Assembly (NCBI RefSeq): GCF_057098645.1
Contig: NZ_CM169472.1
Strand: one strand, 5' to 3'
Length of the DNA stretch: 64,000 nucleotides
Shown here in pieces: positions 59,001 to 62,000 of the stretch. A program made the position numbers. The stretch's first letter is position 1. Each line of letters opens with the position of its first letter.

Positions 59001-62000
59001 AGTTAATTCCCGGAGTGACTGGCAGGATGCCAATCAATGATCGGAAGCATGCCAAATCGTGATCGATTGTGATGCCAAACTGTGATCGGAGATGGATGCC
59101 AAATCATGATCGATTCGAATGCCAAACTGCGATCGATTCAGATGCCATTTTGCACGTTAACCATGGTTTTCAGCTTCTGGATGTTTGCCCGTGCCCTGGC
59201 GTTGCTGGTGGGCACGTTATGCGGCGCGGTCTGTACCAGAGAAAAATCACGCCGGAACTGATAAACAGGCATCACGCAATCATATTCGTAACCTTCACGG
59301 CGGTAAGTTACGCACCGTCCCGCCACGCCCTTAATCATTACCGTGCCGCCGTACTGGTCGCGGTAAATATCACCGCGCGTAAATTTAGGGTGAGTGTTGC
59401 CACTGGCAGTTAAGCCAGAATATTTAAGTTTCATTATTTTTATTCTCCGGTGTGCTGTTCTTTATATCTGTCGTGCAATAGATCTATTTTTTGCAGTTCC
59501 ATTATTACAGGCTCAAGTAGCGTTATTAATGCCGTGGCAATTCTTGATTTTTGTTTGTCGCGTTCATTATCTCCAAGCGTGTCAAGCCATATGCGCAATA
59601 TTTCCAGCATGTTTTCACTGTGAGAAAGTGCAAGAAATGCGCGGTCTATTGTTTCAAGGTAAATATCACGCATATTAATCCCCGTCCGTCGTTTTTCTTA
59701 AAACAACTTCTGTCACGAAATCAGCATAGTTAGCGGCAATATCAAGAATATTTAGCCCTGTATCCCTGTGCTCATCAGTGCAAAGAAAGAAAAAAGCCAC
59801 CAGCATAATTTCAGATATTGACGAAAGCGCATCAGCCGCATCATCAGGAACGCCGGAAAATTCCTGTTTCAGGGAATTAAAACGATCATCACGCATAACC
59901 CCGTTACTTTATTCGTACCCCTTATAATGGGGTGTTAGCCAGCCAGACCCGGCATGATTACTGCCCCCAGTCGTCCATGATCCGGGGGGTGATGTCACCG
60001 GGTCTGGTGGGGCGCTGGTAACCGCTAATAGGGGTCAGGTCAGGCACTTTTGCCGGGACCGTCTGTAACGTGGATGCCGGTACCTGCTCCCCGTGGTTAT
60101 CTGGTTAACCCATATACAAGGGAGACAGAATGACCGAATCCAGCGATTACGAATCCGTCCAGGTCTTTATCGGCGTTGATGTCGGTAAAGATACGCATCA
60201 CGCTGTAGCCATTAATCGTTCAGGTAAACGCCTGTTCGATAAAGCATTACCCAACGACGAAAACAAACTCAGGTCGCTAATATCTGACCTGAAACAACAT
60301 GGTCAGATACTGCTGGTTGTTGATCAGCCAGCTACCATCGGTGCGTTACCTGTCGCCGTTGCCCGCTCAGAAGGAGTCCTTGTCGGATACCTCCCTGGAC
60401 TGGCCATGCGCCGCATAGCCGACTTACACGCCGGTGAAGCTAAAACTGATGCTCGTGACGCTGCCATCATTGCCGAAGCTGCCCGTACCCTGCCTCACGC
60501 GCTACGCACGCTGAAACTGGCTGACGAGCAAATCGCCGAACTCTCCATGCTCTGCGGCTTCGATGATGATCTTGCCGCACAGACAACGCAGGCCAGCAAC
60601 CGTATCCGCGGCCTTCTGACCCAGATACATCCGGCACTGGAGCGCGTTCTCGGTCCGAGACTTGATCACCCGGCGGTACTCGATCTTCTCCAGCGATATC
60701 CCTCACCAGAAAAACTCGCTTCGCTGGGTGAGAAGAAGCTGGCAGCCCAGCTCTGCAAACTTGCGCCTCGTCTGGGTAAACGCCTTGCAGCAGACATAGC
60801 TCAGGCACTGGCCGAACAAACCGTCGTCGTTCCCGGCACGAATGCCGCTGCCGTAGTACTGCCACGTCTGGCACTCCAGCTCATCACGCTGCGTAAGCAA
60901 AGAGACGAGGTGGTGCTTGAGGTAGAACAGCGAGTTCTTGCTCACCCTCTTTACCCGGTCCTGACCAGTATGCCCGGAGTCGGTGTCAGGACCGCAGCCA
61001 GACTCCTCACCGAGGTCGCCTGCCGCGCCTTCGCCTCTGCCGCACATCTCGCTGCTTATGCTGGCCTTGCGCCGGTAACTCGGCGATCCGGCTCGTCAAT
61101 ACGCGGTGAGCATCCCTCGCGACGGGGTAATAAAGCTCTCAAACGGGCGTTGTTCCTGTCGGCCTTCGCCGCGCTCAGGGATCCGCTCTCCAGGGCTTAC
61201 TACACCCGCAAAATGAGTCAGGGAAAACGACACAATCAGGCGCTTATCGCCCTGGCGAGACGACGCTGCGACGTTCTGTTCGCCATGATGCGCGACGGGA
61301 CTTTTTATACCCCGCAGGCGTCATAACATGCTTGACAACTTAATAGGGGCACCCCCCATTTTCACAATCAGCAATAAGAATATTTTTAGCGTCATTCAGC
61401 GACCGCGTGGCGGTGTATCGGATACATTCCAGGGCGAACTGTGTCCGGTCTTTCTGTTCTTCTCCCTGCGCAAGCTCTGCAGTGCATTCAATATCGATAA
61501 GCGCGTGCATCAGCGTAGTGAGCGCGGCGGCTGCTGCGTCCGGTGTGGTTTTATTGCACATGGCACACCTCCTGACGAATACGGGCGGCGAATACAGCAA
61601 CACAACCGGACGGGCAACGGCTACGCGCTTCGCGTTCCGTCCAGGCGGTTACGTGGATGATTTGAGATTCTCCGGCACTCAGTGCCAGAAAACGCCACAC
61701 AAAGGCCGTTTGTGTGTGTACAAGGTGTGGTATATGATTTACAGCAACCATAACGGCTCCTAGTTTACGTTGTTGGTTAGAAGCCCTGCGAGTGGTAACG
61801 ACACTTGCGGGGCTTTGTCTTTTCATCGATTACCTTGATAAAGGTGTCAGCCACTATATTAGTAACGGGTGTCAGCCACGTCAATAGTGTTTTTCCGTTT
61901 TCTTGTGTGTATACTGTCAGCCACCTAATAACGAGGAAATCAGATATGGCAACAAAAGCAGTTAATGCAAAATCCAAAAAGCTTGAGGCTCGAGTACCAC

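What the first reader, a model, noticed from the sequence alone, without database searches (positions are those of the whole stretch)
59900..61335. IS110-family element with a structured GC-rich 5' leader: candidate bridge-RNA locus
A 398-aa DEDD-type IS110-family transposase is preceded by about 230 bp of non-coding DNA with strong inverted repeats (CCAGACCCGGC ... GCCGGGTCTGG and GGTCAGGTCAGGCACTTTTGCCGGGACCGTCTG). IS110-family recombinases have been reported to use a structured non-coding RNA encoded in the element end to specify target and donor sequences. This leader is a plausible example, and the element sits inside a mobile satellite.
Basis: partly seen in the sequence, partly recalled or inferred. 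Interest (0 to 1): 0.6.

Follow-up and report, generated by a model that had tools for sequence, protein, structure and literature searches.

The report
ISEc20 bridge RNA, poly-C targeting
This is a copy of the known E. coli insertion sequence ISEc20, and its 5' leader shows the sequence and covariation features of a bridge RNA that would steer the element into runs of about nine C's; this is an expected feature of its family, already listed in a published survey.

Summary
The element is ISEc20 (IS110 group), present in 1,571 of 5,426 complete E. coli genomes. Its true limits are 59903-61351 plus one shared C. Durrant et al. 2024 (Supplementary Table 5) already list the ISSfl4/ISEc20 cluster as "bridge RNA detected in LE".

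The 227-nt left end folds into a 5' stem-loop and two stem-loops with internal loops. Fifty relatives from Proteobacteria and Actinobacteria support this: 20 of 38 pairs show compensatory changes.

The loops carry four guides in the IS621 order and polarity:
- LTG: CUGCCCCC.
- RTG: GGGGGG.
- LDG: AAUAGGGGU, the same sequence as the right end. It co-varies with the right end in 45 of 45 informative loci.
- RDG: GUAACGUG, the reverse complement of the inferred circle junction CACGTTAC.

Insertion sites are C-runs, here a hypervariable C7-C11 tract in a P4-like satellite. A conserved TTGACA in the right end would form a promoter only after circularisation.

Two details look unusual. Donor and target appear to overlap by a single C rather than by a matched dinucleotide. 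Four copies have their right end fused to native CGTTAY sites, which fits guide-directed adjacent deletion. No transcript or activity data were available.

The parts
59899..59902 (.). Left flank CCCC: the left part of the target C-run, including the crossover C.
   Evidence: Empty sites L001/L002 read CATAA-C8-ATTTTC. Independent ISEc20 copies all have a C-run directly before GTTAC.
59903..60129 (+). Left end (LE) of ISEc20: 227 nt, non-coding, starting GTTAC. It encodes the bridge RNA.
   Evidence: The start GTTAC is shared by 30 ISEc20 copies and about 75 homologous loci.
59905..59910 (+). TACTTT, the -10-like half of a promoter that is complete only at the RE-LE junction of the circular form.
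   Evidence: TTGACA-N17-TACTTT with a one-C junction, N18 with two C's. No sigma-70-like site was found in the integrated state. This is an inference by analogy with IS621.
59917..59933 (+). 5' stem-loop: ACCCC / GGGGU around loop UUAUAAU.
   Evidence: Helix 1: 4 of 5 pairs show compensatory changes (CCCC/GGGG, CCUC/GAGG, CCUU/AAGG).
59942..60008 (+). Target-binding module. Basal stem 59942-59952/59998-60008, second stem 59955-59958/59994-59997, internal loop with LTG and RTG, distal hairpin 59969-59982.
   Evidence: Helix 2: 15 pairs, 7 with compensatory changes, 98.7% paired. Coordinates.
59961..59968 (+). Left target guide (LTG) CUGCCCCC. It has the same sense as the left half of the target C-run.
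   Evidence: The C5 run is nearly invariant in 50 homologues. Left flanks are (G)C4-5.
59984..59991 (+). Right target guide (RTG) GGGGGG (59984-59989), followed by UG (59990-59991). The UG is complementary to the donor's CA and so resembles a handshake guide.
   Evidence: The G6 run is nearly invariant. The right flanks most often have six C's. The UG assignment is an inference from the IS621 scheme.
60010..60091 (+). Donor-binding module. Basal stem 60010-60015/60086-60091, second stem 60022-60024/60078-60080, internal loop with LDG and RDG, distal stem-loop 60036-60060.
   Evidence: Helices 4-7: 9 of 14 pairs show compensatory changes. Coordinates.
60027..60035 (+). Left donor guide (LDG) AAUAGGGGU. 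It has the same sequence as the right end AATAGGGGC (61342-61350), with the last position a G.U wobble.
   Evidence: A 9-nt same-sense match, p = 0.0025 by shuffling. It co-varies with the RE: GGGGC/GGGGC 27 loci, GGGAC/GGGAC 12, GAGGC/GAGGC 6, with no cross-combination of these three variants.
60065..60073 (+). Right donor guide (RDG) GUAACGUG (60065-60072), followed by G (60073). It is the reverse complement of CACGTTAC, which is the junction of RE ...GCA, one C, and LE GTTAC.
   Evidence: An 8-nt antisense match, p = 0.005; joint with the LDG match, 0 of 20,000 shuffles. GUAACGUGG is unchanged in 49 of the 50 aligned homologues; L109 has GCAAC.
60130..61326 (+). Recombinase gene, 398 aa (DEDD/RuvC-like plus Tnp domain). 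RBS AAGGGAG at 60118-60124.
   Evidence: NF033542, 238.6 bits. Pfam PF01548 + PF02371 on 99%-identical P0001. Distant match to IS621 (8WT6, E 1.1e-14) and ISCro4 (9T56). The acidic residues align: D17, D65, D107, D110 and the SGSS motif.
61327..61351 (+). Right end (RE), 25 nt. It holds the -35 box TTGACA (61332-61337) and the left-donor sequence AATAGGGGCA (61342-61351).
   Evidence: TTGAC(A/G) and ATAGGGGCA are conserved at a fixed distance from the end in most of the homologous loci whose right end could be read.
61352..61357 (.). Right flank CCCCCC: the right part of the target C-run, including the crossover C.

Best explanation
Window 59903-61351 is an intact copy of ISEc20, an IS110-group insertion sequence. 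Its left end encodes a bridge RNA of about 175 nt (roughly 59917-60092) upstream of the DEDD/serine recombinase gene.

Anatomy. The RNA has a 5' stem-loop and two stem-loops, each with an internal loop.
- The first loop holds the target guides. [quoted passage not shown] - The second loop holds the donor guides. LDG AAUAGGGGU reads the bottom strand of the right end. RDG GUAACGUG reads the top strand across the RE-LE junction.

Proposed mechanism.
1. Excision joins RE to LE.
2. The junction brings the RE's TTGACA 17-18 bp from the LE's TACTTT, which creates a promoter for the RNA.
3. The RNA-recombinase complex pairs the circle junction with a run of about 9-10 C's.
4. The strands are exchanged at a C just before GTTAC.

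What is shown and what is inferred. Shown here: the structure (by covariation), the guide complementarity, the covariation between LDG and RE, the C-run target, and the conservation of the -35 box. Inferred by analogy with IS621: transcription from the junction, binding of the RNA by the recombinase, and the chemistry of strand exchange.
For: Identity of the element:
- RefSeq names the element ISEc20.
- NCBIfam assigns the protein to the 'RNA-guided transposase' family.
- Durrant 2024 Supplementary Table 5 lists 'ISSfl4 | LE | IS110 | ISEc20;ISSfl4'.

Structure: 38 pairs are 95.9% paired across 50 sequences. Twenty pairs show compensatory changes, 178 compensatory cells against 50 +/- 8 in shuffles (0 of 500 shuffles reach it), and slid controls give 33 or fewer. 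Frequent G.U pairs make the fold specific to the + strand.

Guides:
- The 9-nt LDG and 8-nt RDG matches did not occur together in 20,000 shuffles.
- The LDG and RE variants co-vary in 45 of 45 informative loci.
- LTG, RTG, LDG and RDG are unchanged or nearly so between variable stems.

Target: empty sites versus occupied sites, and about 80 distinct insertion sites with left C4-5 and right C6.

Promoter.

Activity: 1,313 records are at least 99% identical, with up to 9 places per genome in that search and tandem arrays.
Against: - No RNA-seq, binding or transposition data were available, so the transcript and its ends are not shown.
- Rfam 15 has no matching family.
- The target guides do not vary within this clade, so guide-target covariation could not be tested. 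The agreement between the base before the C-run and the LTG is only weak.
- The register in a homopolymer is uncertain by +/- 1 nt.
- The LDG stops short of the crossover compared with IS621.
- No terminator-like site was found between the RNA and the ORF, so the RNA may be the 5' part of the mRNA or may be processed from it.
- The -10 half (TACTTT) matches the consensus at only 3 of 6 positions.
Confidence: 0.9

Rival explanations
1. The leader is only a structured 5' UTR that controls translation or stability of the transposase mRNA. It has no guide function.
For: No terminator-like site separates the leader from the ORF. The single-sequence folding z-score is only -2.1.
Against: A UTR would not need a 9-nt copy of the right end that co-varies with it in 45 of 45 loci. 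It would not need an 8-nt complement of the end junction, nor C5/G6 runs that mirror the C-run target. The RBS lies downstream of the conserved structure and outside it.
Confidence: 0.04
2. The inverted repeats are DNA-level binding sites (subterminal repeats) for the transposase, not RNA helices.
For: IS1111-group relatives have subterminal inverted repeats. The repeats lie near the element's end.
Against: The helices hold many G.U pairs that would be C.A mismatches on the other strand: 52:123 G.U in 38 of 50 sequences, 68:108 in 49 of 50, 81:95 in 50 of 50. Compensatory changes keep the pairing but not the sequence. The repeats lie 40-190 nt inside the end, and none pairs LE with RE.
Confidence: 0.03
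3. The guide RNA is of the IS1111/seekRNA type and is encoded on the 3' side (61327-61400).
Against: Only 25 nt of IS sequence follow the stop codon. The DNA beyond 61357 is satellite sequence that is continuous with the empty site. The published survey places the cluster in the IS110 group with the RNA in the LE.
Confidence: 0.01

Closest known systems
IS621 bridge RNA (Durrant et al. 2024, PMC11208160; Hiraizumi et al. 2024, PMC11208158)
   Same: - The RNA is encoded in the LE, upstream of a DEDD/Ser recombinase.
- It is about 175 nt long, with a 5' stem-loop followed by a target-binding and a donor-binding stem-loop.
- LTG and LDG have the same sense as the top strand; RTG and RDG are antisense to it.
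- An 8-9-nt LDG overlaps the RDG region near the crossover.
- The -35 box sits in the RE and the -10 box in the LE.
- An ATA sits next to the donor sequence, as in the short subterminal repeat described for the IS110 group.
   Different: - The recombinase is only distantly related: E 1.1e-14, and confidently aligned only over the C-terminal domain.
- The target is a homopolymer (C9-10), not a mixed 14-mer such as a REP sequence. As a result LTG and RTG are complementary to each other and fold programs pair them.
- The RTG is 6 nt, against 4 in IS621.
- Donor (CAC) and target (CCC) share one C, not a matched CT dinucleotide.
- The acidic tetrad has D in place of E at the second position.
ISSfl4 / ISBma3 / IS110 proper (ISfinder cluster used in Durrant 2024, Supplementary files 4 and 8)
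   Same: They share the recombinase clade: 93-95% identity to the named Shigella and Salmonella copies, about 80% to ISBma3, and 72-82% to Actinobacterial copies. They also share the leader architecture, the invariant guides and the C-run target.
   Different: ISEc20 differs in stem sequences, in the LDG wobble position (U instead of C), and in having a spacer between the -35 box and the end that is 1 nt shorter than in many relatives, such as the Burkholderia copies.
IS1111-group seekRNA elements (IS4321/IS5075, IS1111)
   Same: DEDD/Ser recombinase; RNA-guided choice of a specific target.
   Different: In those elements the RNA lies in a long RE and the subterminal repeats are long. Here the RE is 25 nt and the LE 227 nt.

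Membership tests
IS110 family, IS110 group (insertion sequence) | DEDD (RuvC-like) N-terminal domain plus a Tnp C-terminal domain with a conserved serine. | tested here: met
   NF033542, 238.6 bits against a cutoff of 140. PF01548 + PF02371 on the 99%-identical P0001. D17/D65/D107/D110 are invariant in A1 and aligned to IS621 in a weak-scoring N-terminal stretch (2.7 bits); the SGSS motif lies in the well-aligned C-terminal domain.
IS110 family, IS110 group (insertion sequence) | Long LE, short RE, no terminal inverted repeats, site-specific insertion. | tested here: met
   LE 227 nt and RE 25 nt. The ends are GTTAC... and ...GGGGCA. All of about 80 distinct sites are C-runs.
Bridge RNA (IS110-group type) | [quoted passage not shown] | tested here: met
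   20 of 38 pairs show compensatory changes, 0 of 500 shuffles reach the observed value, and the slid controls are far lower.
Bridge RNA (IS110-group type) | The donor loop carries an LDG with the same sense as the left donor and an RDG antisense to the right donor. | tested here: met
   The 9-nt and 8-nt matches occurred together in 0 of 20,000 shuffles. LDG-RE covariation holds in 45 of 45 informative loci.
Bridge RNA (IS110-group type) | The target loop carries an LTG with the same sense as the left target and an RTG antisense to the right target. | tested here: met
   C5 and G6 runs face C-run targets with left C4-5 and right C6. Because the guides are almost invariant in this clade, this rests on complementarity, not covariation.
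Bridge RNA (IS110-group type) | An identical core dinucleotide in donor and target. | tested here: inconclusive
   The interrupted-run site L014/L274, the L020 alleles and four RE-C-GTTAY junctions point to a single shared C, donor CAC against target CCC. The window's own site cannot decide, because its tract varies from C7 to C11.
Bridge RNA (IS110-group type) | A promoter reconstituted across the RE-LE junction. | tested here: inconclusive
   TTGAC(A/G) is conserved in the RE, 17-18 bp from TACTWT in the LE, and no promoter-like site exists in the integrated copy. The -10 half is weak and no transcript data exist.
Bridge RNA (IS110-group type) | The RNA is expressed, is bound by the recombinase, and is needed for recombination. 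| not testable with these tools
   This needs RNA-seq, binding assays and recombination assays.
Rfam RNA families | A match to a curated covariance model. | tested here: not met
   There is no match in the leader at E <= 10. Rfam 15 appears to hold no bridge-RNA model that recognises this clade.

The most novel reading that the evidence does not exclude
The ISEc20/ISBma3 clade is a distinct variant of the bridge system in three respects.
- Its guides address a homopolymer (C9-10).
- Donor and target overlap by a single C, with a mismatched first 'core' position (donor A, target C). Both junctions keep the top-strand base, as expected if top-strand transfer dominates.
- The same RNA occasionally pairs the right-end junction with native CCC-GTTAY sites, which produces guide-directed adjacent deletions.

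Because poly-C/G tracts are phase-variable contingency loci, the element would preferentially hit such switches.
Probability: 0.45. Interest if true: 0.45.

Novelty: already known. Interest (0 to 1): 0.3.

Why it matters
For the scan, this finding can be closed. The locus is a textbook-type IS110 bridge-RNA element that is already catalogued, so it should not be counted as a discovery.

The worked-out guide map has some practical value in three ways.
- It gives a natural bridge system whose target is a C-homopolymer, conserved at 72-82% protein identity from E. coli to Arthrobacter.
- It offers natural data on how much core mismatch is tolerated.
- It suggests that bridge RNAs can drive deletions next to the element at sites that resemble the left junction.

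It also explains why ISEc20 accumulates in poly-C tracts of prophages and satellites.

Tried and rejected
- Rfam 15 at E <= 10 over 59000-62500 returned only chance hits, none in the leader.
- The single-sequence MFE pairs LTG with RTG and LDG with the strand before the RDG. I rejected these as functional helices because the pairs never vary or vary on one side only, and because the segments match DNA targets instead.
- The sigma-70 scan of the integrated element found nothing.
- The search for a natural circle or tandem junction gave little. The viral-contig scan found none. The metagenome scan with ATAGGGGCA-N0-4-GTTACYWTNTWC returned 16 hits, all unrelated chance matches. E. coli genomes hold only tandem arrays with RE-CCCC-LE, which say nothing about the circle junction.
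- The empty-site scan for the L019 site found nothing. The L021 empty sites differ from the occupied flank, so they are uninformative.
- I first inferred a CC core from C8 empty sites against the 4+6 flanks. I withdrew this after finding that the tract varies from C7 to C11 and that interrupted-run sites indicate one shared C.
- The test of whether the base before the C-run follows the LTG was too weak to count, because nearly all LTGs have G.
- The 65-bp solo LE copies 'in Rz genes' are ISEc20 copies truncated by an IS3-family insertion, not a separate feature.
- Literature searches for ISEc20, ISSfl4 and ISBma3 found no paper in the held library that dissects this RNA.
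Full report
**What is there**

The ORF at 60130..61326 (+) encodes a 398-aa protein. It scores 238.6 bits on NCBIfam NF033542, "IS110 family RNA-guided transposase", against a cutoff of 140. Megablast against complete E. coli genomes finds the block in 1,571 of 5,426 genomes. In 1,313 records the identity is at least 99%, there are up to 9 places per genome, and the annotation is "IS110-like element ISEc20 family transposase". This is therefore a copy of a catalogued, recently active insertion sequence. The protein is only distantly related to the structurally solved IS621 (8WT6, E 1.1e-14) and ISCro4 (9T56). 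The acidic residues (D17, D65, D107, D110) and the SGSS serine motif align with their counterparts and are invariant among close relatives.

**Ends and target**

Independent copies share window 59899-61357. Related P4-like islands that lack the IS read CATCACGCATAA-CCCCCCCC-ATTTTCAC (L001, L002). The window reads CATAA-CCCC|GTTAC... on the left and ...AATAGGGGCA|CCCCCC-ATTTTC on the right. The IS-specific sequence is therefore 59903-61351, and it was inserted inside a C-run.

Thirty ISEc20 copies from IMG/VR and about 75 homologous elements from other genera all show the same pattern. The left flank is a run of four or five C's, often preceded by G. The right flank is most often six C's. The reconstructed target run is about 8-10 C's. 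The window holds no other run of C7 or longer on the + strand and only one C7 on the - strand, so targets are scarce.

**Already published at survey level**

Supplementary Table 5 of Durrant et al. 2024 (PMC11208160) has the row "ISSfl4 | LE | IS110 | ISEc20;ISSfl4". This means a bridge RNA was detected in the left end and the cluster belongs to the IS110 group. No paper in the held library dissects this particular RNA. Rfam 15 has no model that matches it.

**Structure**

A protein-guided scan of one genome per species returned 80 loci with 72-82% identical recombinases, plus one at 94%. They come from Burkholderia (ISBma3), Paraburkholderia, Duganella, Cupriavidus and Pandoraea, and also from Actinobacteria (Microbacterium, Pseudoclavibacter, Cryobacterium, Arthrobacter). 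Their leaders align from the first base, GTTAC.

I tested a three-module model on 50 distinct leaders: a 5' stem-loop, a stem-loop with an internal loop, and a second stem-loop with an internal loop.
- 95.9% of cells are paired.
- 20 of 38 pairs carry compensatory changes.
- There are 178 compensatory cells, against 50 +/- 8 in column shuffles (0 of 500 shuffles reach the observed value).
- Sliding the partners by 1-3 columns gives at most 33 compensatory cells.

Several helices hold near-invariant G.U pairs (52:123, 68:108, 81:95). These would be C.A mismatches on the other strand, so the fold belongs to a + strand transcript and not to duplex DNA.

The single-sequence fold alone is unimpressive (z = -2.1). 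It also mis-pairs the guide segments with each other, because a poly-C target makes LTG and RTG mutually complementary.

**Guides**

I used the IS621 rules: LTG and LDG have the sequence of the top strand of the left half-site, and RTG and RDG are the reverse complement of the right half-site. Under these rules the ISEc20 leader maps cleanly.
- First internal loop: CUGCCCCC (59961-59968) on the 5' side and GGGGGG (59984-59989) on the 3' side. These mirror the C-run target.
- Second internal loop: AAUAGGGGU (60027-60035) on the 5' side, which repeats the right end AATAGGGGC (61342-61350). On the 3' side, GUAACGUG (60065-60072) is the reverse complement of CACGTTAC, the sequence formed when ...GGGGCA, one C and GTTAC... 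are joined.

In 20,000 shuffles of the leader, a 9-nt same-sense match to the RE occurred at frequency 0.0025 and an 8-nt antisense match to the junction at 0.005. The two never occurred together.

The strongest evidence is covariation between the LDG and the right end, more than 1.2 kb away.
- LDG ..GGGGC pairs with RE ..GGGGC in 27 loci.
- ..GGGAC pairs with ..GGGAC in 12 loci, from both Oxalobacteraceae and Microbacteriaceae.
- ..GAGGC pairs with ..GAGGC in 6 Arthrobacter-group loci.
- There is no cross-combination among these three variants.
- The last LDG position differs from the RE's C in 15 loci: U in 13, which is compatible with a G.U wobble to the bottom strand, and A in 2.

The target guides and the RDG are unchanged or nearly so in all relatives (L109 has GCAAC for GUAAC in the RDG), while the stems around them vary. 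This fits their shared target and shared left end, but it means guide-target covariation cannot be tested in this clade.

**The crossover**

I first inferred a CC core from 4 + 6 flanking C's against a C8 empty site. That inference is unsafe. In 82 related satellites the tract is C7 (21), C8 (33), C9 (13), C10 (4) or C11 (2), with a few interrupted variants.

Four lines of evidence favour a single shared C.
- **An interrupted run.** The occupied site reads GATG-CCCCC|IS|C-T-CCCC and the empty site GATG-CCCCC-T-CCCCC, so exactly one C is shared.
- **A second site.** It has 5 + 6 flanking C's against 10-nt empty alleles.
- **The RDG.** It is complementary to 8 nt of the junction with one C, but to only 6 nt with two C's.
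- **The promoter spacer.** It is 17 nt with one C and 18 nt with two.

If the enzyme cuts with the 2-nt stagger seen in IS621, the 'core' would be AC in the donor and CC in the target, mismatched at the first position. That is the position IS621 tolerates best. Both junctions keep the top-strand base. The left junction is always ...CC|GTTAC or ...TC|GTTAC and never AC. The right junction is nearly always GGGGCA|C, with rare GGGGC-C variants (L040, L112, L114). This pattern fits a recent preprint's claim that integration is mainly by top-strand transfer, but it does not prove it.

The two bases after each 3' guide also fit the handshake idea of Hiraizumi et al. UG after the RTG is complementary to the donor's CA. 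GG after the RDG region is complementary to the target's CC. These assignments are inferences.

**Promoter**

TTGAC(A/G) is conserved in the right end at a fixed distance from the tip in most of the homologous loci whose right end could be read. In ISEc20 it lies at 61332-61337. Joining RE to LE places it 17-18 bp from TACTTT at 59905-59910 (TACTAT in Burkholderia). The integrated copy has no sigma-70-like site anywhere in 59700-61500. A start about 7 nt downstream of the -10 box would fall at the base of the 5' stem-loop (about 59917), giving an RNA of about 175 nt, as in IS621. No terminator-like site follows the donor module, so the 3' end is unknown.

**Context**

The IS sits in a small integrative island. 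PHROGs identify an integrase (63189-63983, -), an AlpA-type excisionase/regulator (62626-62814, -) and a repressor-like protein. Empty-site relatives carry Icd-like, DUF4222 and RepA-helicase genes. An IS21-type transposase gene (57387-59033) is a second insertion. The 'mobile satellite' description is therefore reasonable.

The IS lies on the strand opposite to the satellite genes, inside the G-tract (on the coding strand) that joins two small ORFs. It changes the C-terminus of the upstream ORF from ...ENGGGYA to ...ENGGCPY and separates the downstream genes from their upstream region.

**Verdict**

The finding is not new, because ISEc20 is catalogued and its LE bridge RNA is listed in the 2024 survey. 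What this analysis adds is the explicit guide map, the homopolymer target, the evidence for a one-C overlap, and the side observations listed separately.

Noticed in passing
window 59899-59902 / 61352-61357; L001 1800-1807; L178-L257: The C-tract that ISEc20 hit varies widely in related satellites: C7 x21, C8 x33, C9 x13, C10 x4, C11 x2, plus interrupted forms. On the coding strand it is a G-tract that joins two small ORFs. G7 or G10 gives one fused protein of 144-145 aa (PHROG 2512 covers both halves), while G8, G9 or G11 gives split ORFs. It looks like a phase-variable switch.
   Followed up: partly
L008, L013, L032 (ISEc20 copies) and L061 (Cupriavidus): In four independent copies the right end is fused directly to host DNA that begins C-GTTAY (GGGGCA-C-GTTAC/T...), with no C-run, while the left junction is normal. 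The native partner sites read CCC(CC)GTTAC. For L032 the site lies about 490 bp downstream of the usual C-tract in the empty island L002. This fits recombination between the RE junction and a site that mimics the left junction, that is, a guide-directed adjacent deletion.
   Followed up: partly
L033-L112: Recombinases 72-82% identical to ISEc20 (one, L047, at 94%), with the same leader and the same guides, occur in Enterobacterales, Burkholderiales and several Actinobacterial families. This implies recent transfer of one IS lineage across phyla.
   Followed up: partly
L114 (E. coli SMN197SH3 chromosome): Three ISEc20 copies lie in direct tandem. The junctions read GGGGCA-CCCC-GTTAC and GGGGC-CCCC-GTTAC, and the last copy is followed by C11. 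The C-run left beside a copy seems to act as a target again. One junction has lost the A before the run.
   Followed up: partly
L113 1201-1265 (E. coli MCJCHV-1) and H98-H104: 65-bp solo copies of the ISEc20 left end, annotated under a truncated 'Rz' gene, are remnants cut off by an IS3-family insertion.
   Followed up: yes
window 57387-59033 (-): An IS21-type IstA transposase gene (PHROG 1157, E 4e-91) sits where relatives have the RepA-helicase gene. The satellite therefore carries at least two IS insertions and is probably defective.
   Followed up: no
L033, L038, L052, L067, L101 right ends: Several homologous copies have eroded right ends, where ...ATAGG(G) runs straight into a long C-run and GGCA is missing. 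This could be assembly error in homopolymers or aberrant recombination.
   Followed up: no
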